Origin: Verrucomicrobiia bacterium
GTDB taxonomy: Bacteria > Verrucomicrobiota > Verrucomicrobiia > Limisphaerales > CAIMTB01
Direction: 5' to 3'
NCBI GenBank assembly: GCA_019634625.1
Contig: JAHCBA010000005.1
Location: 136,950 to 200,949 of the forward strand
Length of the DNA: 64,000 nucleotides
In this document: positions 8,718-55,837 of the stretch, piece after piece
How positions within the stretch are numbered: position 1 is the first letter of the stretch
Layout of the letters: each line of letters begins with the position of its first letter
Notes under the pieces: model-generated
Seen by the model: the letters and a program-made list of their open reading frames with translations, nothing else
What the model was told of the DNA's origin: nothing
Databases searched by the model: none
Translations under genes and position numbers: made by a program

Positions 8718-10240
8718 TCCAGCCCGCCCCGATCCTTTTCGGACTCGAAACCGAGTTCGGCATCGCCCGCGGCGACCACCCCGACCTCGACGTGGTCGCC
8801 GAGTCCATTGCCCTCGTCCGCAGTGCCGCCGAACCCGGCGTCCTGATGCGCTGGGATTACGCCTCCGAAAATCCCCACCGGGACATGCGCGGCTTCGACG
8901 TCGCCCAGCTCCGCCAGGACGACGACGAGGCCCGTTACTTTGCCCAGGACGCCCGGCGCGAACTCAGCTTCGCCGAGATCAAGAGCGATTTCGTCTTCGC
9001 CAACGGCGCCCGCTTCTACAACGACCACGCCCACCCGGAATACTGCACCCCGGAATGCGCCCGCCTCTCCGACCTCGTCCTCCACGACCGCGCCGGGGAA
9101 CGCATCGTCATGGCCTGCGCCGCCGCCCTCTCCCGCCAGCGCGGCGAAACCGTCCGCCTCTACAAGAACAACACCGACTTCGCCGGCCACAGCTACGGTT
9201 GCCACGAAAACTACCTCATCCCCCGCGCCCTCGACTGGAACATTCTCGCGACCGCCATCCAGGCCTTCCTGGTCACCCGCCAGATCTTCGCCGGAGCCGG
9301 CAAGTTTGCCTTCGAGGAGGAGGACCGCCTGGTCGGGCACGGATTCCAGATCTCCCAGCGCAGCGACTTCTTCAGCGAACTGCAAAGCGTGGACACCATG
9401 CAGCGGCGCCCCATCGTCAATACCCGCGACGAACCCCACGCCGACCCACGCTACTGGCGCCGCTTCCACGTCATCCTCGGCGACGCCAACATGTCCCCCT
9501 TCGCCACCTGGCTGAAGGTCGGCACCACCGCCCTCACCCTCGAGGCGATCGTCCGCGAACCCGCCCACCCCTGGCCAGCCCTCGCCGATCCCCTCGCCGC
9601 CCTCCGCACCATCTCCGCCGACCCGCACTGGCGCTGGGAAATCCGCTGCACCGACCGCTCCCCCGCCACCGCCATCTCCGTCCAGCGCGACTACCTCGAT
9701 GCCGTCCGCCAAACCTGTGACCTGTCCGACCCCGACCGTGCCGCCCTGGTGACCGCCTGGGCCGGGGTCCTCGATGACCTCGAATCCGACCCCGCCCGAT
9801 GCCGGGACCGCCTCGACTGGGTTGCCAAACATGCCCTCATCCGCGAATTCCAGGCGGCCCAGCAGATCCGTGACGACGATCCCTGGCTGCTCAGCCTTGA
9901 CCTCGAGTACCACCGCCTCGACACCGCCGAGGGCCTCTACTTCGCCCTCGAGGACTCCGGCGCCATGCGACGTGTCCCCCCGCCCGCCGATGTCGAACGG
10001 GCCATCCATTCCCCCCCCGACAACACCCGCGCCGCCGTGCGCGGCCTGTGCATCGCCCGCTTCGCCCCCTTCGTCCTCTCCGCCCAGTGGGACCATGTCA
10101 CCCTCCAGACCCGGCGTGGCCCCCTGCGCATCGACCTGACCGATCTCTTCACCCCGGAACGTCTCGAATCCCTCCTTGCCGCCCTGCACGCCGCCGCGAC
10201 ACCGGACGACTTGCGCTTTGCCCCTTCCGACGGAAACTAA
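8714..10240 (+). CDS. dop: Pup-ligase/deamidase family protein, paralog 1 (Dop-like)
   Basis: GLETEFG N-terminal motif, NGARFYNDHAHPEYCTPE, YGCHENYL and NTRDEPHAD. The N-terminal segment RWDYASENPHRDMRGFD resembles the M. tuberculosis Dop segment RWDYEVESPLRDARGFD (from memory). Its position between mpa and the modifier gene is as in actinobacteria. The family call is strong. The Dop versus PafA split is tentative. Confidence 0.8.
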   Translation: MIQPAPILFGLETEFGIARGDHPDLDVVAESIALVRSAAEPGVLMRWDYASENPHRDMRGFDVAQLRQDDDEARYFAQDARRELSFAEIKSDFVFANGARFYNDHAHPEYCTPECARLSDLVLHDRAGERIVMACAAALSRQRGETVRLYKNNTDFAGHSYGCHENYLIPRALDWNILATAIQAFLVTRQIFAGAGKFAFEEEDRLVGHGFQISQRSDFFSELQSVDTMQRRPIVNTRDEPHADPRYWRRFHVILGDANMSPFATWLKVGTTALTLEAIVREPAHPWPALADPLAALRTISADPHWRWEIRCTDRSPATAISVQRDYLDAVRQTCDLSDPDRAALVTAWAGVLDDLESDPARCRDRLDWVAKHALIREFQAAQQIRDDDPWLLSLDLEYHRLDTAEGLYFALEDSGAMRRVPPPADVERAIHSPPDNTRAAVRGLCIARFAPFVLSAQWDHVTLQTRRGPLRIDLTDLFTPERLESLLAALHAAATPDDLRFAPSDGN

Positions 10241-10260
10241 CCGCCAATCTCTCCCCGCTT

Positions 10261-10434
10261 ATGCCCGAGCAGACTCAAAAGACTCGCCCTCCCATCCCGC
10301 GCCCGTCCGGCGGAGGCGGTGAAGGACCGAAAGCCCCCGACATCGAGAAGCCCAATACCGAGGAACTCCTCAAACGCATGCGCCGCGTCGATCCCGATCA
10401 GGCGCGCCGCTACCGCCAGCGCACCGGCGAGTAA
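10261..10434 (+). CDS. ubact: Pup/UBact-like small protein modifier (57 aa, C-terminal Glu)
   Basis: ATG at 10261 inside track ORF 10048..10434. Sequence: MPEQTQKTRPPIPRPSGGGGEGPKAPDIEKPNTEELLKRMRRVDPDQARRYRQRTGE. It is small and disordered-looking, has a basic helical C-terminal half and ends in ...RTGE immediately before the stop. It sits between the Dop-like gene and prcB, exactly where pup sits in actinobacteria. Confidence 0.8.
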   Translation: MPEQTQKTRPPIPRPSGGGGEGPKAPDIEKPNTEELLKRMRRVDPDQARRYRQRTGE

Positions 10435-10458
10435 CCTCGCCCACCCCTGCTAAACTCT

Positions 10459-11238
10459 GTGGGAGACTCCCTACCCCCTCCGCTGGCGGGCGATTTCTTC
10501 GCCCTCCTGGCCCGTCACCACCTCCAGAACCCCGCGCCGGACGCCTCGGCCTCGCTGCCCCCCACCCAGATCCAGGCCACCACGGTCTTCGCCTTCCATT
10601 TCGCCGGGGGCGTCCTGATGGCCGGCGACCGGCGCGCCACCGCCGGCCACCTCATCGTCACCGAGCAGGTGGACAAAATCCTCGAACTGGACGCCTCATC
10701 CCTCCTCGCCATCGCCGGCGTTCCGGCCACCGCCTTCGAGATCGCGCGTACCCTCAAGACGTCGTTCGAATACTACCGGCGCAGCCAGTTGCAGTCCCTC
10801 AGCCTTCCCGCCCGGCTCCGCGCCCTCTCCCGCGCCCTCCGCGATAACCTCCCCCTCACCCTTCAGGGGGTCGGTGTCGTCGCCCCCCTCTTCGCCGGCC
10901 TCGACACCACCTCTTCACCACCCCGGCCCCAGATCTATTTCTATGATCCCCTCGGAGCGCAGTTCCAGGCCGCCGCCTTCGCCGCCTCCGGCTCGGGTGC
11001 CATCACCATCCGCAGTCTCCTCAGTTTTCAGGAACGGTTCGGGTCCCCCACGCCCTCCCGCCTCCCGCGCCGTGAAGCCGTCCAGCTCGCCCTCCGCGTC
11101 CTCACCGTCGCCGCGGAATTCGATACCGCCACCGGCGGCATCCAGCCCGATGCCTCCCGCTTCGCCACCCTCCGCATCCTCGGTCCGGACGGCATCTCGA
11201 CGGTGGACGATGCGGAACAACGTGACGCCCTCGGTTGA
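10459..11238 (+). CDS. prcB: 20S proteasome beta subunit
   Basis: GTG start and a 40-aa propeptide. The mature N-terminus is then TTVFAFHFAGGVLMAGDRRATAGHLIVTEQVDK. This places Thr1, Asp17 and Lys33 exactly as in M. tuberculosis PrcB ([21 protein letters not shown]...K33). Confidence 0.9.
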   Translation: MGDSLPPPLAGDFFALLARHHLQNPAPDASASLPPTQIQATTVFAFHFAGGVLMAGDRRATAGHLIVTEQVDKILELDASSLLAIAGVPATAFEIARTLKTSFEYYRRSQLQSLSLPARLRALSRALRDNLPLTLQGVGVVAPLFAGLDTTSSPPRPQIYFYDPLGAQFQAAAFAASGSGAITIRSLLSFQERFGSPTPSRLPRREAVQLALRVLTVAAEFDTATGGIQPDASRFATLRILGPDGISTVDDAEQRDALG

Positions 11239-11259
11239 CGTCCCACCCGATCCCGGACC

Positions 11260-11997
11260 ATGACTGAAGAACCCTACAGGTGGATCGAGGCGATCGGGAA
11301 CCGCCGCGAATACGTGGAAACCCAGCTCCGGGGCGGTTCGCCCGTCTTCGCCGCCAGCCTCGACGACGGGATCCTGCTCCTCGGCGTCGGCACCGGACAT
11401 TCCAAGGTCTTCGAAATCTTCGACCGCCACGCCCTCGCCGGTCTCGGGCATCCCACCGACCTCGAACGGGTCCGCCAGACGTTGATCGATGCCGCCCACC
11501 TGGAAGCCTTCACCCGCGCCTCGGCGGATGTCTCCCTCCGGCGCCTGGTCAGCTTCGGCCTCGGACCCCAGCTCAAAACCGCCTTCGAACAGCTCTTCAG
11601 CCCGCCCTTCCTCGTCCGACTCCTCCTCGCCGAAGTGGGCCAGCGCCCAACCAACGATCTCCTCGTCCGGCTCGATTTCGACGGTTCCTTCGAACTCCGG
11701 CCCGGCGGCGTGGCGATCGCAGCCGACAGCCCCTCCGGAACCGCCGCAGCCGGGGACTGGCTTGCCCCGCGCATCGATTCGTCCACATCCCTGCCCGATG
11801 CGTCCCTCTGGCTCCTCGAGGCCTGGCATCGCCTGACCGCCTCCGAACCGTTCCCGGCCGACCTCGACCGTCCCCGAACCGCGTGGACCCTCCCCGCCGG
11901 CCGTCAGGTCGAAGCCGCCCTGCTCCGCCGCACCGCGCCCGGCGAAGCCCGCTACCAGCCCCTGGACCCGGCCCAACTCGTGCCCCCCCCCGCATGA
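11260..11997 (+). CDS. prcA: 20S proteasome alpha subunit
   Basis: 245 aa Ntn-fold-like protein without an N-terminal Thr nucleophile, immediately after prcB. It has an ATGA overlap with the following gene. Confidence 0.8.
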   Translation: MTEEPYRWIEAIGNRREYVETQLRGGSPVFAASLDDGILLLGVGTGHSKVFEIFDRHALAGLGHPTDLERVRQTLIDAAHLEAFTRASADVSLRRLVSFGLGPQLKTAFEQLFSPPFLVRLLLAEVGQRPTNDLLVRLDFDGSFELRPGGVAIAADSPSGTAAAGDWLAPRIDSSTSLPDASLWLLEAWHRLTASEPFPADLDRPRTAWTLPAGRQVEAALLRRTAPGEARYQPLDPAQLVPPPA

Positions 11998-13394
11998 CCC
12001 GCGTCGTCGGTCTCGAAACCGAATACGGCTGCCTCTCCGACGACCCCGCCGGCCCGGCGGCAACCGTCGGACTCGTCCGCGGCTGGCTGTTCGAACGTCA
12101 GCGTTACGGACTGCCCGATGTCTTCCAGCGCGACTGGGATGAACCGCCCGGCAACGGCGGATTCCTGTTCAACGGCGGACGCGCCTACGTGGACATGGGG
12201 CACCTCGAATACTGCACCCCCGAGTGTCTCCAGCTCCGGGACCTCATCCTCTACGACCGCGCCGGCGATCTCCTCCTCGACGAAGCCCTCTCCTCCCTCG
12301 GCCTCACCGCACGGGCCGGCTTCATCCGCAACAACATCGACCACTACTCGGGGGCCACCTTCGGCTGCCACGAAAACTATCTCGTCCGCCGCAGCGCCCC
12401 CCTCACCGAGCGCAACGTCCTCTCCGTCCTCGCCTTCCTCACCCTTCGCGTCCTCTATTCGGGCGCCGGCCGGGTCGGCTCCTCCCTCGGCGCCGAGAAC
12501 CGCGGCGATCACCGCCGGCCCGGCGCCAATCCTCATTTCCAGATCAGTCAGCGCGCCGACTACATCAACAACGAGCTGTTCGAGTGGGTCCAGTTCAACC
12601 GCGCCATCATCAATACCCGCGACGAACCCCTCGCCGATCCCCGCCGCTTCCGCCGCCTCCACCTCCTCCACGGCGACACCAGCGTCCTCCCCTGCACCCT
12701 CGCCCTCAAAATCGGCACCACGGCGCTCGTCCTCGATCTCCTCGAAATCGACCACCTGCCCCATCTCTCCCTCGCCGACTCGGTCCAGACTTTCCGCATC
12801 CTGTCCCACCAGACCGACGGCCCCTGGGAGGTCACGCTGGCCGAAGGCGGGTCCGCCGATGCCATCGAGATCCTCGCCCGTTATCAGGCCGCCGCGTCGG
12901 CCGAATTCCGCGGTCGCGATGCCGAAACCGATGCCATCCTTGCCCTCTGGGCCGAAACCCTGGATGCCCTCTCCAAGGACCCCCAACGCCTGATCGGCCG
13001 GGTGGACTGGATCACCAAGCAATGGCTCCTCTCCCAGTTCGTGGAACGGGAGGGCGTGTCCTGGGACGATCCCTGGCTCCGCTCCCAGGACCTCGAATTC
13101 CACCACGCCTCCGTCACCCGTTCCCTCGGCCACGCCCTCGACCGTTCGCCCGATCCCTGGGCCATCCGTCAGGGGGACGCCACCAAGGCCCTCGACACCC
13201 CCCCGGCCGACACCCGCGCCCATGCCCGTTCCCAGCTCATGCGTCGCATCTCCCAGCGAGAGGGTCGCTACTTCGTGGACTGGGAGATCGTGGACATCGA
13301 GGGCTTCGAAACGCTGCACCTCCTCGATCCCTTCTCCCCCCAGCCGCCCGAGCCCAAGCCTCTCTCGGAACCGCCCGATTCAAAGCCCTCCTGA
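11994..13394 (+). CDS. pafA: Pup-ligase/deamidase family protein, paralog 2 (PafA-like by position and length)
   Basis: In the frame of track ORF 11280..13394, starting MTRVVGLETEYGCL (ATG at 11994). Motifs: GGRAYVDMGHLEYCTPE, FGCHENYL, NTRDEPLAD and LHLLHGDTS. The family call is strong. Ligase versus deamidase is not resolved. Confidence 0.8.
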   Translation: MTRVVGLETEYGCLSDDPAGPAATVGLVRGWLFERQRYGLPDVFQRDWDEPPGNGGFLFNGGRAYVDMGHLEYCTPECLQLRDLILYDRAGDLLLDEALSSLGLTARAGFIRNNIDHYSGATFGCHENYLVRRSAPLTERNVLSVLAFLTLRVLYSGAGRVGSSLGAENRGDHRRPGANPHFQISQRADYINNELFEWVQFNRAIINTRDEPLADPRRFRRLHLLHGDTSVLPCTLALKIGTTALVLDLLEIDHLPHLSLADSVQTFRILSHQTDGPWEVTLAEGGSADAIEILARYQAAASAEFRGRDAETDAILALWAETLDALSKDPQRLIGRVDWITKQWLLSQFVEREGVSWDDPWLRSQDLEFHHASVTRSLGHALDRSPDPWAIRQGDATKALDTPPADTRAHARSQLMRRISQREGRYFVDWEIVDIEGFETLHLLDPFSPQPPEPKPLSEPPDSKPS

Positions 13395-13500
13395 ACCGCG
13401 TAGGCCCATCCAGTCAACCGGGCATGAACGACGGCACCCGATCGTCAGGTTCAGTGAACCCGACCGATCGGGCGTCACGCCGACCTTCCCCTCCTTCCCC

Positions 13501-15202: not shown

Positions 15203-15335
15203 ATCCATGCAGCAGGCGGGAGGTGCGAACTCCGCAACGCATCTCCCCGGAGGGCCGGGTTCCACGAGGCCGCAACGGTGTGGAGCGTTGGGTCGTGGAC
15301 TCGCGGAGCTCGTCCCTCCGGTTCTCCCCCGGACT
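15203..15335 (-). mobile_element. MITE-like repeat, copy 1 (reverse orientation, degenerate termini)
   Basis: The core GGAGGTGCGAACTCCGC...GGAGGGCCGGGTTCCACGAGGCCGCAACGGTGTGGAGCGTTGGGTCGTGGACTCGCGGAGCTCGTCCCTCCGG is the reverse complement of the core of the copies at 20850, 36092 and 38839. Confidence 0.7.
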
Positions 15336-19619: not shown

Positions 19620-20489
19620 TCAATCCTCCTCCCGCTCGTCCCCAGACTCTTCCCCCGGCGCGGGCCGGCCCTGCGCCGCATGCCGGCGCTCCGTCACCAG
19701 GCCGCGCCGGCTCCCCTTGGCAAAGGTCACCAACCGCAACCCCCATTCGCTCTCCGCCAGCGGTTCCGCCGCCGCCAACGCCGCCCGGAATCCCAGCCCG
19801 GTGCGGAACAGCGCGTGGTAGATCCGGCGCAGTTCCAATCGGACCGCCGCCGGCAATCCCGCCCGTCGCAGCCCGATCACATTCAAGCCGCATACCCGGT
19901 TGTGGTCCCGCGCGATGCAGAACGGCGCCAGGTCCTTGCTGATGCCGGAGTCCCCCTGCATCAGCGCCAGCGTCCCCACCCGCACAAACTGGTGGATCAG
20001 GCAGTTTGCCGAGATGAACGCCATGTCCTCGATCACCACATGCCCGCCCAGTTGCGCCCCGTTCGCGATGATCACCCGGTCCCCGATCTGGGCGTTGTGC
20101 CCGACGTGGCAGTGCGCCATGAAGAAGCCGCCGGACCCGATCCGCGTCGGCTCGTCCGCCCGGTTGGCGCAATGCACCGTGACATGTTCCCGAAAGGTAT
20201 TGCCCTCCCCGATCTCCAGCCGCGTCGGCTCACCTCCATAGCGCAGATCCTGCGGCGGACCGCCAATGACGCACCCCGCTCCGAAGGAGTTCCCGGCCCC
20301 GATCCGGGTCCATCCCGTCAGATGCACCAGCGGACCCACCCGGCATCCCGGCCCCAGCTCGACATGGCCGTCGATGACCGTGTGCGGGCCCACCTCAGCC
20401 GTCGGATCGATGCGGGCCCGGGAATCAATCACGGCGGTCGGATGATGCGCCACGCCGGAAGTCTGCCCAACCCGCCGCCGACAATCCAC
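19620..20489 (-). CDS. lpxA: Acyl-ACP--UDP-N-acetylglucosamine O-acyltransferase
   Basis: Left-handed beta-helix hexapeptide repeats plus LpxA blocks (HPTAVIDSRARIDPTAEVGP..., QDLRYGGEPTRLEIGEGNTFREHVTVH, MAHCHVGHNAQIGD, GLNVIGLRRAG). The true start may be the GTG at 20453 (VAHHPTAV). Confidence 0.9.
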   Translation of the reverse strand: MDCRRRVGQTSGVAHHPTAVIDSRARIDPTAEVGPHTVIDGHVELGPGCRVGPLVHLTGWTRIGAGNSFGAGCVIGGPPQDLRYGGEPTRLEIGEGNTFREHVTVHCANRADEPTRIGSGGFFMAHCHVGHNAQIGDRVIIANGAQLGGHVVIEDMAFISANCLIHQFVRVGTLALMQGDSGISKDLAPFCIARDHNRVCGLNVIGLRRAGLPAAVRLELRRIYHALFRTGLGFRAALAAAEPLAESEWGLRLVTFAKGSRRGLVTERRHAAQGRPAPGEESGDEREED

Positions 20490-20652
20490 GCTTTCGAGCC
20501 CTCGGAGCCTCTCTGAAAATTCGAAGGGGCCCGGTTTCGAAGAAATGGCCGGATGCCGAGGCGCGGAGGAGGAGGATCGAGCATACCCGACAGCGGGCTG
20601 TGACCCAGGAGCGACGATACAAGCCGGCCAAATCCCATCCCTTACAACAATA

Positions 20653-20758
20653 GGTCAGGCTCACTAATGTTGACCCTACGGCAACGAGACTACGGCAATA
20701 AGTCAGACCCCTATTTGTTGACGCCACTGGCTATATAGTCAGGCTCACAGTTGTTGAC
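20653..20758 (+). repeat. Array of three 21-bp dyad motifs (GTCAGGC-N7-TGTTGAC) in an AT-rich island
   Basis: Units at 20653-20675 (GGTCAGGCTCACTAATGTTGACC), 20702-20722 (GTCAGACCCCTATTTGTTGAC) and 20738-20758 (GTCAGGCTCACAGTTGTTGAC). Each is preceded by an A/T-rich patch (aata, aataa, atata). The array lies upstream of lpxA, which is on the minus strand. Confidence 0.7.
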
Positions 20759-20849
20759 GCCTTGCTCCTGCCCGAAACCCACAAGAATTTCCGTGCGGCC
20801 ATTGGCGAAAGGTTCGCCGAGGATTCCGGCGCCGATCAGGTGCATCCCG

Positions 20850-20998
20850 GAGTTGTGGGTGAGGAGCCAGCGAATCGGAAGGGCGAGCTCTGCGAGTCCT
20901 CAACACAACGCTCCACTCCGTTGCAGCCTCGTGGAACTCGGCCCTCCGAAGCGCCGCTTGGCGTAGTTCGTACCTCCACCCACAACTCCGGGATGCAC
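20850..20998 (+). mobile_element. MITE-like repeat, copy 2 (intact)
   Basis: TIRs are GTGCATCCCGGAGTTGTGGGTG ... CACCCACAACTCCGGGATGCAC. It is flanked by the 10-bp direct repeat GGCGCCGATC (20838-20847 and 21000-21009). Confidence 0.8.
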
Positions 20999-21149
20999 GG
21001 GCGCCGATCCCTCAATGGGCTTTTCTCTTGAGTCGCCCCTCCCCCAATTCCTACGCTGCCCCCCGTCTTTCGCCGTCATGGAACGCGATGCGCGCCTTTT
21101 CCAGGGCTACTCCTCCGATTGGTCGCCGCGCCTGTTCTGAACGCCTTCC

Positions 21150-27845: not shown

Positions 27846-29948
27846 TCAGCGCTCCTGCCGCCCTGGGCTCACGGACTGCTGATCCGGATGGACCAGGCGG
27901 CGTCCGAGGCAGCGGGAACCGCCCAGGCGTCGTCGCCGATGCCGCGGCTGCCGTATCTCGTACAGGCGGTCCGGTCGGACCCCTTCGAGGATCCGATGCC
28001 GGCCGTCCCGCCAGCGAACCGTCAGCTTCATCGGGCCCGGGTTCGGCCCGGTGGCGAAGACCAGCAGCGGTTGACCCCCGGACAAATACCGGCCCCCGCT
28101 GACCGCTTCCCGGGACTGAACCGGACCGGCACCGCCCTGCAGCGTGACGACGGCGCCGATGCCCTCCGTGTTGGGCGGCAGGCCAATGAGGCGAACGGCG
28201 AGCCGGGGCAGGGCCGCCTCGTTCCGGTACACGGCCACCGGACCGTCAAGCGCGTTGATGACCAGGTCGAGATCTCCGTCCCCGTCGAAATCGGCCGCCG
28301 CGAATCCCTGATGGACCCCCGGAATCCGGAATCCCCAGTCGGCCGAGACATCTTCAAACCGCAGCGGAGCCGTCTGTCGGAAGGCAACCATCGGCGTGGC
28401 CAATGACGGATAGAGCCGGTTGTGGTCCCGGAGATCCTGCTGGAACCGGCGCAACCGGGCCTCCGCGTCAAGACCCGGCGGCCACGGCCGTTGGAGGGAT
28501 CGTACCCGGGCCGTGGCATCCAGATCCTGGATGTCCCGCCGATGTCCGGTCGAGATGATGACATCATCAAACCCGTCGAGGTCCACATCGAGGAAGAGCG
28601 GTTGCCAGGACCAGTCGGAGGCGGCGAGTCCGGCGAAGTCGGCGATCTCCGCAAACGTGCCGTTGCCCCGGTTCAGGAAAAGGGTGTTGCGCATCACCTG
28701 GGGACGGTCGAGGAAGGTGCCCGGCAGGCGGCCCTGGGGCGTTTGGGCGAGGGCCTGACGACGACGCAGCGCCGGGTCGCGGGCAAGCATGTCGAGAACG
28801 AGGAAATCCACCTCGCCGTCCCCGTCGAGGTCGGCAAAGTCCACCCCCATCGAATTCTCGCTGGTGTGGCGCAGCGCATCGAGGGGAGCGGCCCGAAACC
28901 GGCCCTGGCCCGCGTTGATCCAGAACCGGTCGGGCGTCCAGTAGTCGTTGCAAACGTAGAGGTCAGGGAGCCCGTCGCCGTTGACGTCGCGGAAGGACGC
29001 GGCGAGCCCCCAGTCGCGCGGCGGACCCGCGAGGGGTTGTCCCGCCTCGTCCAGGAAGGCCCCTCCGGTCCACGAAACGGCCCGAAACCGCCCGGTGCCG
29101 TCATTCAGCAGCAGCACGTCGGGCTCGCCGTACTCGAGGAGCCCGCGGGGCCCGATGAAGAGCCGGTCGCGATACTTCGGATGCAGGACCGTGCGCCCCC
29201 CCACGACGCGGGCCTCGACATTGGGATCGTCCCGCACGTCCTCGGCCCGGTAGCGAACGACGTAGAGATCCAGGGTGCCGTCGCCATCCACGTCGGCCAG
29301 GGCCAGGGTGGTGGTCCCGGGCCAGATCGCGGGAAAGGCTTCACGGGTGGTCTCGCGAAAGCGCCCGTCGCCACAGTTCATGAAGCAACGGAGCCCATTG
29401 GCCAGGGTGGCAACCAGGAGATCGAGGTGGCCATCGCCGTCGAGGTCGGCAAAGACCGCCCCTCGGACCGCCTCGCCGGCGAGGCCCAGGCCGGATTCGT
29501 CCGTAACCTCCCGGAACCGCCAGTCCCCAAGGTTTCGATACAAGGCGCTCCCTCCCGACAGACTGGCCAGGAACACGTCCGGCCTGCCGTCGCCATCATA
29601 ATCCCCCGCCGCCACCCCGGCGCCGTTCTCCAGAACCCGTCGGACCGCCCCGTCTGCCTCGTCCAGACGGTGGACAAAGCGGATTCCGGTACGGTCGGCG
29701 GAGAGTCGGGTGAACCCGACCCGGGCCGGGTCTGCATTCCGGCCGGCGAGGGGCCGGAGGCGGAACCCGTCGCCTTCGGTCCATTCGCCGCCCGCGACAA
29801 CCCCAAGGGCAGGAGCGCAGGGCAGGGCAAAGCCAAAACCTAAGGCCAGGGCGCGAACGGCGGCATGCATCGCGGGACGGGGTTGTTCGGGGAAGTGAAG
29901 CGATGTGGCGGGCGGCAGGGAAGTCCCCGAATTCTTCGGGTATTGCAT
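27846..29948 (-). CDS. FG-GAP/VCBS-repeat protein with an ASPIC/UnbV-like C-terminus (CRTAC1 family)
   Basis: Repeated DxDGDGxxD calcium-binding-like motifs (DYDGDGRPDVF, DLDGDGHLDLL, DVDGDGTLDLY, DLDGDGEVDFL, DFDGDGDLDLV). C-terminal GIGAVVTLQGG...SGGRYLSG. The probable true start is MHAAVRALALGFGFALPCAPALG at 29870. Confidence 0.8.
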   Translation of the reverse strand: MQYPKNSGTSLPPATSLHFPEQPRPAMHAAVRALALGFGFALPCAPALGVVAGGEWTEGDGFRLRPLAGRNADPARVGFTRLSADRTGIRFVHRLDEADGAVRRVLENGAGVAAGDYDGDGRPDVFLASLSGGSALYRNLGDWRFREVTDESGLGLAGEAVRGAVFADLDGDGHLDLLVATLANGLRCFMNCGDGRFRETTREAFPAIWPGTTTLALADVDGDGTLDLYVVRYRAEDVRDDPNVEARVVGGRTVLHPKYRDRLFIGPRGLLEYGEPDVLLLNDGTGRFRAVSWTGGAFLDEAGQPLAGPPRDWGLAASFRDVNGDGLPDLYVCNDYWTPDRFWINAGQGRFRAAPLDALRHTSENSMGVDFADLDGDGEVDFLVLDMLARDPALRRRQALAQTPQGRLPGTFLDRPQVMRNTLFLNRGNGTFAEIADFAGLAASDWSWQPLFLDVDLDGFDDVIISTGHRRDIQDLDATARVRSLQRPWPPGLDAEARLRRFQQDLRDHNRLYPSLATPMVAFRQTAPLRFEDVSADWGFRIPGVHQGFAAADFDGDGDLDLVINALDGPVAVYRNEAALPRLAVRLIGLPPNTEGIGAVVTLQGGAGPVQSREAVSGGRYLSGGQPLLVFATGPNPGPMKLTVRWRDGRHRILEGVRPDRLYEIRQPRHRRRRLGGSRCLGRRLVHPDQQSVSPGRQER

Positions 29949-29961
29949 TCTAGTATATTAA

Positions 29962-30109
29962 GTCGGGCATTATGTTGTGGACGCCACATTCCTGCCCGGT
30001 ACCCCCCATGAATCCGATCGAGCCGCCATGGACGCCCTGATCGCAGATCGTCAACCCAATCTTGCCGGGCGTATTAGATGCAACCCGGTCAACAGTCATT
30101 TGCCAGTCC
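29962..30109. repeat. Two convergent copies of the 21-bp dyad motif in the AT-rich CRTAC1/parB divergent region
   Basis: 29962-29982 GTCGGGCATTATGTTGTGGAC (plus orientation). 30087-30109 GGTCAACAGTCATTTGCCAGTCC, which is the reverse complement of GGACTGGCAAATGACTGTTGACC. Both have adjacent TATTA-type A/T patches. Confidence 0.6.
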
Positions 30110-30349
30110 TATTATTTTATATTGTTGTAGCAATCGGTTGATCGCTCTCCTCTCCTGGACCGGTTGTCCCCGCGATAGTGTCTCCCAACCCGCCAGCAGT
30201 CCGTCGAACTGAGCCTGCAGCGGAAGCGTACAAAACCTCTGGGCCCCAGAAGCCCTTATCCCTCCTCAAGCCAAATCGTTCGATAGGGATCCGGGGAAAG
30301 TCCGGCTGGTTTGACTTGGGGGGGAAGGTTCGGGAGAGTCCGCGCTTCG

Positions 30350-31414
30350 ATGTCCAAACCGGCGCTAGGTCGTGGGTTGTCAGCGTTGCTGGGCGGCAGA
30401 ACGCCCGGCGGGGCCTCGACGGAGTCCGCGCCGGCCGCGTCAGGGCCGCCGGCGGCGCCCAATGCGGCGCCCAATTCGGCGCCTGATGCGACGCCAAGTG
30501 TTGCGCCCCCGCCGATCGGGCCGTCCGGGACCTCCGCCCCCTCCGCGGTCTCGAGGGTGCCGGGAGAAGGCGGGGTGGAGCGGGTGCCGGTCGGGCGGAT
30601 CCGTCCGTCCGCCCTGCAGCCGCGGCGCGATTTTCCGGAGCAGAGCCTGCAGGAACTGACGGATTCGATCCGGGAACAGGGAATCCTTCAGCCTCTAGTG
30701 GTACGGCAACAGGGCGAGTTCCTCGAACTGATCGCAGGAGAACGGCGCTGGCGGGCCGCCCAGCGGGCCGGGATGGCCGAGGTGCCCGTCATCGTGCGGG
30801 AGGCGGACGACACCACGGCACTCGAATGGATGCTGGTGGAGAACCTCCAAAGGGAGGGGTTGAACCCGATGGAGGAGGCCCAGGGGTACGGGGAATTGAT
30901 GGAACGATTCGACCTCACCCAGGAGGCCGTCGCCACCCGGGTCGGGCGAAGCCGTGCGTCGGTGGCCAACGCGCTGCGCCTCCTCAAGCTGCCGGGCGAC
31001 GTTCAGGGCTGGCTGCGGGCAGGCCGCCTTACCGCCGGCCATGCCAAGGCCATCCTTGCACTGCCCCCCGGCGAACCTCAAACCCGCGCCGCCCGACGGG
31101 TGCTCGACGACGGTCTTAGCGTTCGCCAGGTGGAGGAACTCGTCGCCCTGTGGACGGCGAAGCCGGAGTCCGCGCCCTCCGGACCCGCCGCGGCACCCGC
31201 GTCGTCCGGGGCGGGAGGCGGACGGGATCCGCATGTGGCGGCGATGGAGGACCAGTTGCGGCAGCGCCTGGGAACGCGGGTGAACCTGCGGTACCGCCAG
31301 GGGCGCGGGCAGATCGACATCCGGTTCGCCAACGACGCCGATCTCGAACGGGTCCTCGAGGTCATGGGCATCCGCATGGAGGAATCCGACCCTCCGGGAA
31401 ACGGAGCGGTTTAG
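30350..31414 (+). CDS. parB: Chromosome-partitioning protein ParB/Spo0J
   Basis: Starts MSKPALGRGLSALLGG (ATG at 30350, in the frame of ORF 30311..31414). ParB box LIAGERRWRAAQRAG. HTH: LTQEAVATRVGRSRASVANALRLLKL. Confidence 0.9.
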   Translation: MSKPALGRGLSALLGGRTPGGASTESAPAASGPPAAPNAAPNSAPDATPSVAPPPIGPSGTSAPSAVSRVPGEGGVERVPVGRIRPSALQPRRDFPEQSLQELTDSIREQGILQPLVVRQQGEFLELIAGERRWRAAQRAGMAEVPVIVREADDTTALEWMLVENLQREGLNPMEEAQGYGELMERFDLTQEAVATRVGRSRASVANALRLLKLPGDVQGWLRAGRLTAGHAKAILALPPGEPQTRAARRVLDDGLSVRQVEELVALWTAKPESAPSGPAAAPASSGAGGGRDPHVAAMEDQLRQRLGTRVNLRYRQGRGQIDIRFANDADLERVLEVMGIRMEESDPPGNGAV

Positions 31415-32592: not shown

Positions 32593-32774
32593 TTTCAGAC
32601 AGGCTCCCTGGCGGTGCACCCCGGGTGGTGGGTGAGGAGGCAGAGAATCGGAGGGACGGGCTCCGCGAGTCCCCAATCCATGGCACCCCTCCCCTGGGGC
32701 CTCATGGAACCCGGCCCTCCGGGGCCACGCTTCGCGAGGCTCGCACCTCTCTCCCCACAGCTCCTGAAGGCATC
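32593..32774 (+). mobile_element. MITE-like repeat, copy 3 (diverged, with the 5' extension TTTCAGACAGGCTC)
   Basis: GTGCACCCCGGGTGGTGGGTGAGGAGGCAGAGAATCGGAGGGACGGGCTCCGCGAGTCC...GGAACCCGGCCCTCCGG...CGCACCTCTCTCCCCACAGCTCC. The extension TTTCAGACAGGCTC recurs in reverse at the partial copy at 55838-55907. Confidence 0.7.
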
Positions 32775-32813
32775 GGTTTCCGACGCCGGCCCAATTTCCG
32801 GCTTGCCCTGAAG

Positions 32814-36025: not shown

Positions 36026-36091
36026 AGAGCCGGCAAGAGTCTCGCCGGGGAAACAAAACTCAAGAGCGAATTCACGAACGGGCTCGCGCCG

Positions 36092-36240
36092 GTGCATCCC
36101 CAAGTTGTCGGTACCGAGCCAGCGAACCGGAGGGACGAGCTCCGCGAGTCCTCAACCCAACGCTCCACACCGTTGCGGCCTCGTGGAACTCGGCCCTCCG
36201 AAGCGCCGCTTGGCGGAGTTCGCACCTCTACCGACAACTC
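36092..36240 (+). mobile_element. MITE-like repeat, copy 4 (intact)
   Basis: GTGCATCCCCAAGTTGTCGGTACCGAG ... CTCTACCGACAACTCCGGGATGCAC. It is flanked by the 9-bp direct repeat GGCTCGCGC (36081-36089 and 36242-36250). Confidence 0.8.
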
Positions 36241-36303
36241 CGGGATGCACTGGCTCGCGCGCTCGCGCGAGCCCGGAGATCCGTTGTCAAATGGGATCGG
36301 GAC

Positions 36304-38470: not shown

Positions 38471-38602
38471 ATCGTGTGGGCCGTGCCACCGGGCCATGGA
38501 TGCGCGCCATTGAATTCTCGATGAGCCATTGGCTGCTTGGGCACGTTGGATCTTCCTCGGCTACAGCAAGCGTTACTCCGGCACCCAGCGCTGAGCATTC
38601 AC

Positions 38603-38645: not shown

Positions 38646-38666
38646 GGTGGTTTCGAGCGTCGGGCC

Positions 38667-38756: not shown

Positions 38757-38838
38757 AATCGAAACTTTGTGACGTCCAAGTTACATATCGGTTGCTTGAT
38801 GGCAACGCCCAAGTCACGGATTCGTGACAATCAATCCG

Positions 38839-39215: not shown

Positions 39216-39337
39216 GCCCGGCACCTAGATGTTGACGCGCCGCGACGAGGCCACCCGCCGCGGTCACAAGGGAATTCTGACGAGTACCGGGCCGAAGCAC
39301 GCCGTCATCGTCAGCAGTCATCAATATAACGCCTGAC
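39216..39337. repeat. Dyad-motif copies in duplication unit 1
   Basis: 39216-39236 GCCCGGCACCTAGATGTTGAC (plus orientation). 39317-39337 GTCATCAATATAACGCCTGAC, the reverse complement of GTCAGGCGTTATATTGATGAC. Confidence 0.6.
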
Positions 39338-39506: not shown

Positions 39507-39826
39507 CGATCAGATCAATGCCTCGGGTCGCAGCACCAGCTTGCCGGCCAAGCCGCCCTTCTTCAGGACCGTGCTCTCCTCCTGGAGGCGGTGAGCGGCG
39601 GCAGTTTCCGACAGGGGGAGAATCCGGTCAATCCGCGGGCGGTACTGACCACCGGTCAGCCAGCGGTTCAAATCCTGCGCCGCGTTGCGCTGCTCGTCGG
39701 GTGAGGCGGCGAACATGACGAAGCCGTGGAGGGAACAGCCCTTGACGTAGAAGGGTCCCACGGGGAACGGGGGGCGGGCCTCCCGGCCGGCCATGAGCAC
39801 GGGCGGCCAGCGCGGATTGTGAGCCT
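39507..39826 (-). pseudogene. Displaced 3' fragment of the quinone oxidoreductase gene (last roughly 96 codons)
   Basis: Track ORF 39510..39800 is identical to the Qor C-terminus except for one D/E change. It has no N-terminal two-thirds. There is a 10-bp deletion relative to the full copy just upstream of the homology end. Confidence 0.75.
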
Positions 39827-39832
39827 GGCATG

Positions 39833-40020
39833 TGGATGTTGACGCGCCGCGACAAGGCCACCCACCGCGGGCACAAGGGAATTCTGACGAGAACAGGACT
39901 GAAGCGCGCCGTCATCGTCAGCAGTCAGCCATATAGCGCCTGACCTTTTATTGGCATCGAGTCATCCATAGAAAGCCTGACCTATTATCTTTTTATCGAG
40001 TCATCAATAAAACGCCTGAC
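39833..40020. repeat. Dyad-motif copies in duplication unit 2, including three tandem iterons (37-39-bp period)
   Basis: 39833-39853 GCCTGGCATGTGGATGTTGAC (plus). In reverse orientation: 39924-39944 GTCAGCCATATAGCGCCTGAC, 39961-39981 GTCATCCATAGAAAGCCTGAC and 40000-40020 GTCATCAATAAAACGCCTGAC. Each is followed by a TATTAT-like patch. Confidence 0.7.
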
Positions 40021-48765: not shown

Positions 48766-49155
48766 AATGCGACGGGATCTGAGGTGGACGGGGTTATGAC
48801 AGGCGGACGGTGACCATGCAAACCGGCGCAGCTTCCAATGCGCCTTCTTCGGGTCGGAGCCGGATGGCCGCCGTCTCGTTCGGGAGTGCGGACCGCTCAC
48901 CTCCGTGTCGGGTTTCGGAATGCATGAGCACCCAGTCATGACGAACGGGCGAGACGATCCGGGACAGGTATCTCCCTCGTGCCCCAGAAGCCCGAATCCA
49001 CGGCGAGCCGGAGCGCCCGCTTCGCTCCTTCCTCAGTCGCCGTTCGCCGACTGGGGGGTGGGACTGGGGGGTGGGAGAGGAGGATACGCCGCAACCGGGA
49101 ACTTAAGACCGGCAGTTGGGTGGATGTCGACGTCTAGAACGTGCCCGTAGAATGT

Positions 49156-49499
49156 GCCCGACACGTTATACTTGACTGCTGACCCAACAAGAGTCTGACA
49201 CTTAGTTGTTGACTTCTCTGACATAAAGTCTGACACATACTTGTTGACACTGTGGTTCCTCCGGAAACCTTGGAGTTCTCATCTGGCCATGGTGGATACC
49301 ATTGCAGCTTGGCAGTTGCCCCGACGGTCAACAGCTATTGGCCTGCGTTACTGAAATAAGTTGCTGACATTGCACGCACACACTCTCTCTCTGCTGCTCT
49401 GCCTCCACCCCCTACACCCCCAGCCCGGCATCCCCTAAAATTCCTATCGGCTCACTGGAGATGATCCTGCCGCGTGTCGTCAACATTAGGGTGCCGGGC
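49156..49499. repeat. AT-rich island with five copies of the 21-bp dyad motif
   Basis: Plus orientation: 49156-49176 GCCCGACACGTTATACTTGAC, 49193-49213 GTCTGACACTTAGTTGTTGAC and 49228-49248 GTCTGACACATACTTGTTGAC. Reverse orientation: 49326-49346 GGTCAACAGCTATTGGCCTGC and 49479-49499 GTCAACATTAGGGTGCCGGGC. The island lies between the fdhD 3' end and the BNR gene start. Confidence 0.65.
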
Positions 49500-49654
49500 T
49501 CATTGACTGTAGCGGTTTGGAAGGCTCACGCTGAAGCGTGGACGCCCAACCAACCCGGCAGGGCGGCGACTCGGGGGTACCGGGTTGGCCGCACTTCGTT
49601 TGGTGTGCGGACTTCATGAATGACTCTCTTCCGCGCCTACCGTTGGGTCACCCG

Positions 49655-55827: not shown

Positions 55828-55837
55828 CTTCCATCCG

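What the first reader, a model, noticed from the sequence alone, without database searches (positions are those of the whole stretch)
20653..20758. Recurrent 21-bp dyad motif GTCAGGC-N7-TGTTGAC arrayed in AT-rich islands at five or six intergenic loci
I count about 17 copies, always inside sharply AT-rich patches of an otherwise very GC-rich sequence:
- 20653-20758 (3 copies)
- 29962-30109 (2, convergent)
- 39216-39337 (2)
- 39833-40020 (4)
- 49156-49499 (5)
- a related perfect dyad at 52921-52940

All copies keep the outer GTCA...TGAC half-sites 13 nt apart (GYCWGRC-N7-TGWTGAC). Most have a TATTAT or TATATA-like hexamer 0-2 nt beyond the GCCTGAC end when read on the opposite strand.

In that 'sense' reading (GTCAACA-N7-GCCTGAC-n-TATTAT), the units point towards lpxA, the CRTAC1-family gene, parB and the BNR-moaD pair. 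They could therefore be a shared promoter or operator module with an unusual upstream element. The spacing to the TATTAT is 15-16 nt, and there is no canonical TTGACA.

Alternatively they may be iteron-like binding sites for one DNA-binding protein, or the ends of a second small repeat family. Tandem periodicity is 35-49 bp.
Basis: seen in the sequence. Interest (0 to 1): 0.65.

Follow-up and report, generated by a model that had tools for sequence, protein, structure and literature searches.

The report
Inserted promoter-like repeat arrays, Verrucomicrobial genome
The 21-bp motif is real and far above chance, but it belongs to a young family of non-coding DNA insertions in one uncultured Verrucomicrobium lineage, not to the original control regions of the neighbouring genes, and what it does is still unproven.

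Summary
There are 17 copies of GTCAACA-N7-GCCNGRC in five AT-rich islands, against about 0 expected even from shuffles of the islands themselves. A TATTAT-like hexamer usually follows each copy at fixed distance. Copies sit in tandem (35-48 bp period), mostly as two arrays reading outward from a 67-80 nt core that is itself weakly conserved.

The organism is an uncultured Verrucomicrobiae MAG. Its closest available relative (ParB 76%, LpxA 86%, BNR 94% amino-acid identity) has the same gene order. It lacks the islands at all three orthologous spacers tested (101 vs 479 nt, 193 vs ~660 nt, 170 vs ~890 nt). It carries a homologous two-unit module at a different place. One island is flanked by a 9-bp direct duplication of the empty-site sequence. 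parB and lpxA keep conserved promoter-like sequences next to the inserts.

So this is a lineage-specific, insertion-polymorphic mosaic repeat, not an ancestral shared promoter or operator. The near-invariant blocks around a diverged N7 argue for sequence-specific protein recognition. The geometry fits a sigma-70-family promoter (blocks at -34..-28 and -20..-14, hexamer at -12..-7) but the -35-position block is non-canonical. Accessory outward promoters is my best guess (~0.4). Promoter-independent binding arrays or transposon-end remnants remain open. Interest is moderate.

The parts
20654..20674 (-). Unit A3 (outermost of array A): GTCAACATTAGTGAGCCTGAC, then c-TATTGT
   Evidence: PWM 29.0; sequence
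20702..20722 (-). Unit A2: GTCAACAAATAGGGGTCTGAC, then TTATTG
   Evidence: PWM 26.2
20738..20758 (-). Unit A1 (next to the core): GTCAACAACTGTGAGCCTGAC, then TATATA
   Evidence: PWM 28.3. A 20701-20779 is 71% identical over 79 nt to D 49192-49269
20759..20834 (.). Core of island A. No second array follows; a MITE of the other repeat family is inserted at 20835
   Evidence: TCCTGCCCGAAACCC matches B 29990-30004. MITE junctions
20501..21017 (.). DNA present in the window but not in the sister species between GST and lpxA (island A, about 150 nt of unique sequence, and the nested MITE)
   Evidence: Flank alignments to L216 end at 21018 and 20500. The sister has 18 nt here
29918..29926 (+). Left copy of the 9-bp direct duplication GGGAAGTCC flanking island B
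   Evidence: The single copy GGAAAGACC in sister L214 9946-9954 aligns to both copies
29927..30294 (.). Island B insert (368 nt) between the CRTAC1-family gene and parB
   Evidence: Absent from the sister: spacer 101 nt against 479 nt
29962..29982 (-). Unit B-left: GTCCACAACATAATGCCCGAC, then t-TAATAT
   Evidence: PWM 23.5
29983..30049 (.). Core of island B (67 nt)
   Evidence: Similar to the A, C1 and D cores plus adjacent units at 60-69% over 49-85 nt
30050..30070 (+). Unit B1: GTCAACCCAATCTTGCCGGGC, then g-TATTAG
   Evidence: PWM 17.7. B 30049-30115 is 66% identical over 67 nt to the sister's two-unit module L214 16286-16220
30088..30108 (+). Unit B2: GTCAACAGTCATTTGCCAGTC, then c-TATTAT
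   Evidence: PWM 23.2
30295..30303 (+). Right copy of the 9-bp direct duplication GGAAAGTCC
39216..39236 (-). Unit C1-left: GTCAACATCTAGGTGCCGGGC, then gcac-TATAGG
   Evidence: PWM 25.0
39237..39316 (.). Core of island C1 (80 nt)
39317..39337 (+). Unit C1-right: GTCATCAATATAACGCCTGAC, then cga-TTATAT
   Evidence: PWM 28.8
39823..39843 (-). Unit C2-left: GTCAACATCCACATGCCAGGC. No hexamer follows, because the duplication junction lies at 39816
   Evidence: PWM 23.8. 39816-39951 is 86% identical to 39209-39344
39844..39923 (.). Core of island C2 (duplicate of the C1 core)
   Evidence: family D4
39924..39944 (+). Unit C2a: GTCAGCCATATAGCGCCTGAC, then ct-TTTATT
   Evidence: PWM 23.1
39961..39981 (+). 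Unit C2b: GTCATCCATAGAAAGCCTGAC, then c-TATTAT
   Evidence: PWM 25.7
40000..40020 (+). Unit C2c: GTCATCAATAAAACGCCTGAC, then g-TATTAT
   Evidence: PWM 29.9
49156..49176 (-). Unit D3 (outermost, degenerate): GTCAAGTATAACGTGTCGGGC
   Evidence: PWM 20.6
49193..49213 (-). Unit D2: GTCAACAACTAAGTGTCAGAC
   Evidence: PWM 30.7
49228..49248 (-). Unit D1 (next to the core): GTCAACAAGTATGTGTCAGAC, then TTTATG
   Evidence: PWM 28.2
49249..49326 (.). Core of island D (78 nt)
49327..49347 (+). Unit D4 (weak): GTCAACAGCTATTGGCCTGCG
   Evidence: PWM 17.6
49479..49499 (+). Unit D5: GTCAACATTAGGGTGCCGGGC, then TCATTG
   Evidence: PWM 24.8. The unit with about 60 nt upstream resembles B 29991-30075 and C1 39213-39292
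49015..49654 (.). Approximate extent of extra DNA between the fdhD stop and the conserved BNR upstream region (island D lies inside it)
   Evidence: The sister spacer is 170 nt against about 890 nt. No units in L217. The left limit is uncertain
30311..30339 (+). Not part of the repeat: conserved promoter-like sequence next to parB, TTGACT-17-GAGAGT, 10 nt before ATG 30350
   Evidence: Nearly identical in sister L214. TTGACA-type equivalents lie upstream of parB in more distant relatives
20460..20488 (-). Not part of the repeat: conserved promoter-like sequence next to lpxA, TGGATT-17-CAGACT, 6 nt before GTG 20453
   Evidence: Conserved in sister L216 as TGGATA-17-CAGGGT. Homology resumes exactly at the insert boundary 20500

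Best explanation
The motif is the recognition module of a lineage-specific family of non-coding DNA insertions, a mosaic dispersed repeat.

Each island holds 1-4 tandem copies of a ~28-bp module, GTCAACA-N7-GCCNGRC-N-TATTAT. In most islands two arrays read outward from a short, weakly conserved core. Islands were added to intergenic spacers after this lineage split from its closest sampled relative. Array length changes by gain or loss of whole units.

Shown:
- The modules are real.
- The modules are insertion-polymorphic.
- Multi-unit blocks were copied between loci.
- The modules are not the neighbouring genes' ancestral promoters.

Inferred:
- The two near-invariant blocks are contacted by a protein, because N7 between them has diverged freely.
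- With the hexamer placed at -12..-7, the blocks fall at -34..-28 and -20..-14. The modules therefore most likely act as accessory, outward-reading sigma-70-family promoters. They would need a specific sigma factor or an activator, because the -35-position block is not TTGACA-like.
- These promoters would add transcription into whatever lies beside the insertion: lpxA, CRTAC1, parB and BNR on one side, antisense or orphan RNA on the other.
For: Real and non-random.

Protein-recognition pattern: the blocks are invariant or nearly so (G1 T2 C3 G15 C17 G19 in 19/19; A4 C6 C21 in 18/19). N7 carries 0.1-0.7 bit per position. The hexamer is intermediate.

Promoter geometry: the hexamer starts 0-4 nt, mostly 1, after block 2. 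This puts GTCAAC 15-17 nt upstream of it.

Insertion: the sister species keeps the gene order but has spacers of 101, 193 and 170 nt against 479, ~660 and ~890 nt. It has no units at those sites. A 9-bp direct duplication of the empty-site sequence flanks island B.

Dispersal of pre-formed arrays:
- The two-unit module B 30049-30115 is 66% identical to a module at a non-orthologous site in the sister, with the same 38-nt spacing.
- A 20701-20779 is 71% identical to D 49192-49269.

Unit-number change: C2 has two more units than its tandem duplicate C1.

Native promoter-like sequences are retained beside the inserts.

Restricted distribution: 0 units in 279 kb of more distant Verrucomicrobia. 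Nothing comparable was found in JGI metagenomes, IMG/VR, plasmids or phages.
Against: - No transcription data exist, so promoter activity is inferred from geometry only.
- GTCAAC matches TTGACA at 2 of 6 positions. The consensus sigma-70 scan finds only two 9-of-12 matches in the four island regions, no more than shuffles give.
- In the hexamer the fourth position (T26, 17/19) is better conserved than the sixth (T28, 13/19). That is not the usual -10 pattern.
- Promoters 35-48 bp apart would occlude each other.
- Three outward ends face 3' ends of convergent genes and a fourth faces no convincing gene. No conserved or structured RNA and no convincing ORF lies downstream.
- Apart from units and a short core piece, the inserted DNA is not shared between islands. 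No common termini or inverted ends were found, and only one island has a clear target duplication. The way the islands spread is therefore unexplained.
- 'Insertion here' versus 'deletion in the sister' is decided mainly by island B.
Confidence: 0.45

Rival explanations
1. The arrays are binding sites (iterons) for a sequence-specific DNA-binding protein and have no promoter role. Examples are a transposase or recombinase that recognises repeated subterminal sites, a plasmid-type partition or replication protein, or a nucleoid or silencing protein. On this reading the TATTAT tract serves bending or spacing.
For: - Two invariant 7-bp blocks separated by a free AT-rich 7-mer.
- Tandem copies in inverted arrays around a core, as in transposon ends with several transposase sites or in plasmid centromeres.
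- Presence at places with no gene to drive.
- Poor match to the TTGACA-type -35 that native promoters of this clade use.
- All islands lie within 20-50 kb around parB. None lies in 0-20 kb or in 50-71 kb.
Against: - No candidate protein gene lies nearby.
- The spacing of 35-48 bp is irregular and differs from the ~22-bp register of classical iterons.
- The outermost units lie 35-190 nt inside the insert boundaries, not at the termini.
- The inverted arrays are only about 60% alike.
- A hexamer with A at position 2 kept at fixed distance is not needed for simple binding.
- No canonical parS or DnaA-box cluster is present.
Confidence: 0.25
2. The islands are decaying remnants with no present function. 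They would be leftovers of a larger mobile element or of small inserted cassettes, with units kept alike by recent copying and gene conversion rather than by selection.
For: - The family is young and narrow: only this organism and its sister have it.
- Several units are degenerate (49156, 49327, 30050).
- The rest of each insert is unique, non-coding and unstructured.
- In the sister, the two units lie in the middle of a high-GC3 reading frame of unknown family. This looks like a disrupted or decayed gene.
Against: Neutral decay should hit the blocks and N7 alike. Instead six block positions are 19/19 and three more 18/19, while N7 is close to random, also across the two species. That pattern indicates selection or biased conversion on the blocks.
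Confidence: 0.2
3. One reading: an ancestral shared promoter or operator that co-regulates lpxA, CRTAC1, parB and the BNR gene as one regulon.
For: A shared motif with a -10-like hexamer lies upstream of these four genes, and arrays point towards their 5' ends.
Against: - The motif is absent from all three orthologous spacers of a relative with the same gene order.
- parB and lpxA retain conserved promoter-like sequences between the island and the start codon, and BNR retains a conserved proximal upstream region.
- The implied 5' leaders are about 80-380 nt. Native promoters in this clade appear to lie 6-10 nt from the start codon.
- The arrays are bidirectional. About half of the outward ends face 3' ends or no gene.
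Confidence: 0.05
4. The islands are chromosome-maintenance sites: unusual parS-like centromeres, or parts of the replication origin. This is suggested by the position around parB and by a change of GC-skew sign across the window.
For: - Islands cluster around parB at roughly 9.2-9.4 kb intervals.
- GC skew is negative at 1-23 kb, near zero at 24-55 kb and positive at 56-64 kb.
- No canonical parS lies in the window.
Against: - The sister species, whose ParB is 76% identical, lacks the islands at the same sites.
- Canonical parS is also missing near parB in every related locus examined, so its absence here says nothing.
- There is no DnaA-box cluster and no dnaA gene.
- The regular spacing is partly produced by later MITE insertions.
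Confidence: 0.03

Closest known systems
Correia repeat enclosed elements (CREE) of Neisseria
   Same: Both are small non-coding dispersed elements with an inverted-repeat-plus-core layout. They sit in intergenic spacers and are present or absent between close relatives. CREE can create a promoter at either or both ends that reads into neighbouring genes (abstract of PMC2649163).
   Different: CREE have defined ~26-bp terminal inverted repeats and a TA target duplication (my own knowledge, not checked here), and they have no internal tandem arrays. Here no shared termini were found. The repeated unit is internal and tandem, and the one clear duplication is 9 bp.
BOX elements of Streptococcus pneumoniae
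   Same: Both are composite repeats in which a short module (boxB) forms a tandem array of variable copy number between other modules. Copy number changes between loci and strains, and effects on expression of neighbouring genes have been reported (PMC3049150).
   Different: BOX elements are predicted to fold into stem-loops when transcribed, and they have boxA and boxC ends with similarity to an IS terminal repeat. The units here do not fold. Their arrays are inverted around a core, and each unit carries a -10-like hexamer.
Putative mobile promoters (Matus-Garcia, Nijveen, van Passel 2012)
   Same: Homologous promoter-like sequence is found upstream of unrelated genes within one genome and is interpreted as propagated regulatory DNA (PMC3488235).
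   Different: That set was defined by at least 80% identity over 50-100 nt. The islands here share only 60-71% over 49-85 nt. Only about half of the outward ends are upstream of a gene.
Transposon ends with several transposase-binding repeats (Tn7, Mu, Tn402/Tn5053, IS21)
   Same: Several ~20-bp direct repeats at each end, with the two ends in inverted orientation (my own knowledge).
   Different: No transposase gene is present. The units are not at the insert termini, there is no conserved terminal dinucleotide, and the two arrays are only 67-80 nt apart. This is a resemblance only and was not tested further.
Plasmid iterons and type II centromeres (for example parC of R1, two iteron arrays flanking a promoter core)
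   Same: Tandem short repeats on both sides of a core in an AT-rich stretch (my own knowledge).
   Different: There is no adjacent rep or par gene for these sites. The spacing is irregular at 35-48 bp. There are several copies on a chromosome, and they are absent from a close relative.

Membership tests
Sigma-70-type (housekeeping) promoter | -35 hexamer close to TTGACA | tested here: not met
   The block at the -35 position is GTCAAC(A), 2 of 6 matches. The consensus scan finds only two 9-of-12 matches across the four island regions, no more than shuffles give. Native promoters of the clade use TTGACT or TTGACA.
Sigma-70-type (housekeeping) promoter | -10 hexamer close to TATAAT, with A at position 2 and T at position 6 | tested here: inconclusive
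   T23 A24 T25 T26 R27 T28, with A24 in 15/19 and T28 in 13/19. The best-kept position is the fourth (T26, 17/19), which is atypical.
Sigma-70-type (housekeeping) promoter | 16-18 nt between the two hexamers | tested here: met
   Mostly 15-17 nt between GTCAAC and the hexamer, most often 16.
Sigma-70-type (housekeeping) promoter | A transcription start about 7 nt downstream of the -10 | not testable with these tools
   No transcript data for this organism are available in the tools.
MITE (miniature inverted-repeat transposable element) | Terminal inverted repeats shared by all copies | tested here: not met
   No inverted repeats at the insert ends. After masking the units, only a 15-nt core piece and a few 10-14-nt matches are shared between islands.
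MITE (miniature inverted-repeat transposable element) | Target-site duplication of fixed length | tested here: inconclusive
   A 9-bp duplication (8 of 9 identical) flanks island B and is single-copy in the empty site of the sister. Junctions of A and D could not be resolved.
MITE (miniature inverted-repeat transposable element) | Small, non-coding, multi-copy, present or absent between relatives | tested here: met
   Inserts are about 330-640 nt with no convincing ORF. There are five islands in 64 kb, and all three orthologous sites in the sister are empty.
REP / BIME-type palindromic repeats | The unit forms a stable hairpin | tested here: not met
   Units fold at -0.5 to -3.9 kcal/mol with z-scores between -1.8 and +0.8. 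Arrays are no better than shuffles.
Putative mobile promoters (PMC3488235) | At least 80% identity over 50-100 nt upstream of non-homologous genes | tested here: not met
   Between independent islands identity is 60-71% over 49-85 nt. Only the C1/C2 tandem duplicate reaches 86%.
Plasmid-type iterons / replication origin | Regular ~22-bp register, adjacent initiator gene, DnaA boxes | tested here: not met
   Periods are 35-48 bp. Neighbouring genes are lpxA, GST, CRTAC1, parB, ADH, BNR and fdhD. There is one DnaA-box-like hit against 3.05 expected.
parS centromere of ParABS | 16-bp palindrome TGTTNCACGTGNAACA, conserved with ParB | tested here: not met
   No match with up to 3 mismatches. The islands are absent around the 76%-identical ParB of the sister.
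Known RNA families | Match to an Rfam covariance model | tested here: not met
   No hit at gathering scores in the whole window. At E<=1 in 38400-40300 the only hit is a chance miRNA match inside the other repeat family.

The most novel reading that the evidence does not exclude
The 28-bp module is the cognate promoter (or promoter plus operator) of a so far unidentified sigma factor or activator confined to this Verrucomicrobial lineage. Ready-made arrays of it spread through the genome by an unknown insertion route that leaves 9-bp duplications but needs no terminal inverted repeats. The result would be a self-propagating 'promoter array' that places essential genes such as lpxA and parB under an additional common control and creates antisense or orphan transcripts elsewhere.
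Probability: 0.2. Interest if true: 0.65.

Novelty: new variant of a known kind. Interest (0 to 1): 0.4.

Why it matters
Dispersed intergenic repeats that carry promoters or protein-binding sites can rewire expression quickly. Almost nothing is known about them, or about promoters in general, in Verrucomicrobia.

This family is unusually informative for three reasons:
- Its unit shows a clear selective footprint: invariant blocks around a free spacer.
- It sits directly upstream of essential genes.
- A sister genome supplies clean empty sites.

If the modules fire, they define a new promoter class for an uncultured lineage and a case of promoter spread. If they only bind a protein, they mark an unknown chromosomal or mobile-element system.

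There is also a practical point. Together with a second repeat (a MITE), these islands break short-read assemblies and mislead start-codon calls. The CRTAC1 start is one example.

Tried and rejected
- **Inward-firing promoter.** On the opposite strand the block reads TGTTGAC, which contains the canonical TTGAC. No nAnnnT hexamer lies 16-18 nt downstream, except one case at D. In arrays the next AT tract is only 8-10 nt away (reading).
- **Other known site types.** By reading, spacing or sequence does not fit any of these:
  - sigma-54 (-24/-12), which needs an invariant GG
  - ECF-type promoters (AAC...CGT), where the spacing is 13-14 nt, not 16
  - MerR-type, Pho-box, LytTR, IHF, dif/Xer or inverton sites
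- **Small RNA or small-protein cargo downstream of the arrays.** Four downstream segments fold no better than shuffles. Rfam finds nothing. No ORF has coding-like GC3 except antisense to ADH.
- **Wider distribution.**
  - The 14-base pattern in IMG/VR gave only single chance hits.
  - The module with its hexamer gave 24 single hits in IMG/VR.
  - The two-unit pattern in JGI metagenomes gave 11 unrelated perfect tandem repeats.
  - blastn of islands D and C2 against plasmids and phages gave nothing.
- **Extending the genome.** Two look-ups failed because the start codons I guessed were wrong. One look-up added 7 kb to the right, with no units.
- **ORF beside the sister's units.** No match in Pfam, NCBIfam, PHROGs or PDB, and no homologue in the window.
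- **Common insert termini.** A recurring CCGAATTC-like motif near some boundaries was seen by eye, but it did not survive the masked-alignment test.
Full report
**1. The observation**

The window is 62-72% GC. The reported stretch 20653-20758 contains three direct copies of GTCAGRC-N7-TGTTGAC.

- I read the motif on the strand where it is GTCAACA-N7-GCCNGRC followed by TATTAT, and call that the 'sense' strand. On it I collected 17 units. A PWM built from them finds exactly these 17 above score 17, plus one weak reverse-strand echo.
- Local AT-richness does not explain them. In 1000 dinucleotide-preserving shuffles of the five islands (1110 nt, 49-55% GC) the exact pattern never appeared, against 8 observed.
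- In unselected control DNA the PWM hits 5 times in 1.06 Mb, and 0 times in 279 kb of more distant Verrucomicrobia.

Small corrections: island B has three units, not two. The C2 array starts at 39823. The palindrome at 52921-52940 is a different feature.

**2. Anatomy**

The logo of 19 units, including two from a sister species, is.

- G1 T2 C3, G15, C17 and G19 are invariant. A4, C6 and C21 are kept in 18 of 19.
- The seven bases between the blocks are AT-rich but otherwise free.
- One base after block 2 comes T-A-T-T-R-T, moderately conserved.
- After that, conservation is lost.

Units are tandem, with start-to-start spacings of 36 and 48 (A), 38 (B), 37 and 39 (C2), and 35 and 37 (D).

Except in A, two arrays read outward from a 67-80 nt core. 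The cores of A, B and D share short stretches such as TCCTGCCCG..ACCC.

Similarity between islands extends over whole multi-unit blocks:
- A 20701-20779 matches D 49192-49269 at 71% over 79 nt.
- B 29991-30075, C1 39213-39292 and D 49420-49504 match each other at 60-62% over 80-85 nt.

Arrays were therefore copied between loci as blocks. They were not built up independently at each place.

C1 and C2 are not independent. They belong to a 607-678-bp tandem duplication that also carries 300 nt of the 3' end of the alcohol-dehydrogenase gene. C2 has two more units than C1, so unit number changes.

Units do not form hairpins.

**3. Gene context**

Pfam and GC3 give this map:

| Island | Left neighbour | Right neighbour |
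|---|---|---|
| A | lpxA (-; start GTG 20453 from the 277-aa NCBI product) | GST (+) |
| B | CRTAC1-family gene (-) | parB (+; ATG 30350) |
| C | about 0.75 kb (38471-39215) with no convincing gene: a MITE of another family and a 29-codon ORF | 3' end of ADH (-) |
| D | BNR/sialidase-like gene (-; start 48765 from the 371-aa product) | 3' end of fdhD (-) |

Outward arrays face 5' ends in four cases: lpxA, CRTAC1, parB and BNR. Three outward ends (C1+, C2+, D+) face 3' ends of convergent genes, and C1- faces no convincing gene.

Because most islands fire both ways, 'pointing at genes' carries almost no information. Only island A is one-sided. It faces lpxA rather than GST.

**4. Organism and relatives**

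ParB matches at 100% a protein annotated from a Verrucomicrobiae MAG (contig 213.8 kb). Identical Logan contigs come from SRR12908348 and SRR12908349. In the GTDB species set the best ParB is 61% identical, from Verrucomicrobiota/Limisphaerales MAGs. None of those loci has a unit.

The closest relative is an organism assembled from SRR12908357, with ParB 76%, LpxA 86% and BNR 94% identical. Three of its contigs cover the orthologues of islands A, B and D, with the same gene order.

**5. The key comparison**

| Spacer | Sister | Window | Units in sister |
|---|---|---|---|
| CRTAC1-parB | 101 nt | 479 nt, using the orthologous CRTAC1 start ATG 29870 | none |
| GST-lpxA | 193 nt | ~660 nt | none |
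| fdhD-BNR | 170 nt | ~890 nt | none |

- Island B: homology with the sister stops at 29926 and resumes at 30295. The sister's single GGAAAGACC aligns to both GGGAAGTCC (29918-29926) and GGAAAGTCC (30295-30303). This makes a 368-nt insert flanked by a 9-bp duplication.
- Island A: homology stops at 21018 and resumes at 20500. The sister has 18 nt where the window has 517 nt. That 517 nt includes a nested MITE with its own target duplication.
- Island D: the right flank is conserved and the left limit is unclear.

The sister is not free of the family. It has two tandem units with TATTGC and TATTAT hexamers at L214 16227 and 16265. This site corresponds to window ~36.1 kb, where the window has no unit. 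That pair is homologous to the B pair and has the same 38-nt spacing.

Together this shows a family shared by two sister lineages but sitting at different places. It is mobile, or at least insertion-polymorphic, DNA.

**6. Native promoters are still there**

- parB: directly after the B insert comes TTGACT(30311-30316)-17 nt-GAGAGT-10 nt-ATG. It is almost identical in the sister. More distant relatives have TTGACA-17/18-nAnnnT 6-10 nt before the parB start.
- lpxA: the conserved sequence resumes exactly at the A insert boundary. It contains TGGATT-17-CAGACT-6-GTG.
- BNR: its proximal upstream region is also conserved.

So the islands were added upstream of working control regions, and the clade's normal -35 is TTGACA-like, unlike the motif. 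That these sequences are the active promoters is inference from conservation and consensus, not shown.

**7. What the module does**

The contrast between invariant blocks and a free spacer holds across copies that are otherwise only 60-70% alike, and across two species. This is the footprint of sequence-specific recognition, not just recent copying.

With the hexamer placed at -12..-7, block 1 lies at -34..-28 and block 2 at -20..-14. This is the layout of a sigma-70-family promoter with a 15-17 nt spacer. It is the most economical reading, and I give it about 0.4.

Against it:
- The upstream block is unlike TTGACA, so a specific sigma factor or activator would be needed.
- The hexamer's conservation profile is atypical.
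- Promoters 35-48 bp apart exclude each other.
- No structured RNA or coding cargo lies downstream.
- The consensus scan finds only two 9-of-12 matches, no more than shuffles give.

The main rival, at about 0.25, is that the units are binding sites for some other protein, such as a transposase, partition, replication or nucleoid protein. A third possibility, at about 0.2, is functionless remnants. The selective footprint argues against that one.

Origin or centromere roles and the ancestral-regulon reading are unlikely (and section 5).

**8. How it spreads**

This is unresolved.

- For transposition: one clean 9-bp duplication.
- Against a classical MITE: no shared termini, no terminal inverted repeats, and unique filler DNA in each insert.

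The second repeat family in the window is a textbook MITE with ~27-bp inverted ends and 9-10-bp duplications. A transposase making 9-bp duplications is therefore probably active in this genome. Any link to the islands is speculation.

**9. Comparison with known elements**

The nearest functional analogues are these:
- Correia elements of Neisseria: inverted repeat plus core, and promoters at either or both ends (PMC2649163).
- Pneumococcal BOX elements: a tandem, copy-number-variable internal module with effects on neighbouring genes (PMC3049150).
- Putative mobile promoters (PMC3488235).

The islands fail the defining features of each (see the membership table). I therefore file them as a new variant of the general kind 'dispersed mosaic intergenic repeat with regulatory potential', not as a member of any named family.

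**10. Verdict**

The motif is real, strongly non-random and probably functional at the level of protein recognition. It is lineage-specific inserted DNA, not the native promoter or operator of the flanking genes. The promoter reading is plausible but unproven. Interest is moderate (0.4). It would rise if transcription starts or a cognate protein were found.

Noticed in passing
window 15215-15326 (-), 20835-21011, 32608-32784, 36087-36263, 38834-39010, partial 55835-55886: A second repeat family of about 180 nt. It has ~27-bp terminal inverted repeats (GTGCATCCCGGAGTTGTGGGTGAGGAG ... CTCCACCCACAACTCCGGGATGCAC) and 9-10-bp target duplications: GGCGCCGATC, GGCTCGCGC and GTGACAATC. This is a classical MITE. 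Logan contigs of the same organism end inside its copies. It was not found in 36 kb of the sister species.
   Followed up: partly
window 39209-39815 and 39816-40485: A tandem duplication of 607-678 bp carries island C together with the last 300 nt of the alcohol-dehydrogenase gene (96% identical). It leaves a truncated ADH fragment at 39508-39807. The two copies differ by two motif units.
   Followed up: partly
window 52921-52940: A perfect 20-bp palindrome, GTCAAATGTATTGATTTGAC, lies in the divergent spacer between the molybdopterin oxidoreductase and NUDIX genes. It shares the GTCAA half-site with the motif but is not scored by the PWM. It is not present in the sister's orthologous spacer (L217).
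   Followed up: partly
window 7008-13400: A UBact-proteasome gene cluster: a proteasomal AAA ATPase, a Pup-ligase-family protein, a 62-aa UBact (10246-10432), a proteasome subunit, a following gene with no Pfam hit, and DNA-level similarity suggesting a second Pup-ligase paralogue (9001-9914 against 12170-13104), which has no Pfam confirmation.
   Followed up: partly
window 30311-30350 and 20451-20488; parB-upstream stretches of loci L001-L003, L008 and L013 (within ~9800-10000; 6600-6650 in L002): Promoter-like sequences of this clade lie only 6-10 nt before the start codon: TTGACW-17/18-nAnnnT, for example GAGAGT or CACTCT. This suggests leaderless or near-leaderless mRNAs for parB and lpxA.
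   Followed up: no
window 29870-29957: The automatic gene call for the CRTAC1-family protein (700 aa, ATG 29948) starts inside the inserted island. Comparison with the orthologue puts the start at ATG 29870, where the signal peptide MHAAVRALALG begins. A 49-aa ORF called across the island is probably spurious.
   Followed up: yes
window ~20790, ~30016, ~39277, ~49288: The island cores are spaced 9.2-9.4 kb apart. No units lie in 0-20 kb or in 50-71 kb. This is probably chance, since later MITE insertions contribute up to 560 nt to the intervals, but it is unexplained.
   Followed up: no
whole window: GC skew is negative at 1-23 kb, near zero at 24-55 kb and positive at 56-64 kb. This would fit a replication origin or a rearranged segment somewhere in the middle. 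No dnaA gene and no DnaA-box cluster was seen.
   Followed up: partly
L214 15918-16447 (- strand): In the sister species a reading frame with coding-like GC3 runs in the same frame on both sides of the two motif units and has one apparent frameshift at a G run. It has no match in Pfam, NCBIfam, PHROGs or PDB. It could be a gene disrupted by the units, or a gene driven by them.
   Followed up: partly
window 49049-49074 and 49135-49160: Two 13-nt tandem duplications lie inside the island D insert: GACTGGGGGGTGG twice and TAGAAYGTGCCCG twice. G-rich and C-rich inverted stretches (49053-49084 against 49404-49426) lie left of the leftward array and in the right half of the island (22 nt, 73% complementary).
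   Followed up: no
window 38671-38757 (- strand): A 29-codon ORF encodes a hydrophobic peptide, MNACPGRLEIALWWVFGALILGGAFAAVL. It lies about 460 nt downstream of the leftward unit of island C1, with a MITE in between. GC3 is 0.66, so coding status is doubtful.
   Followed up: no
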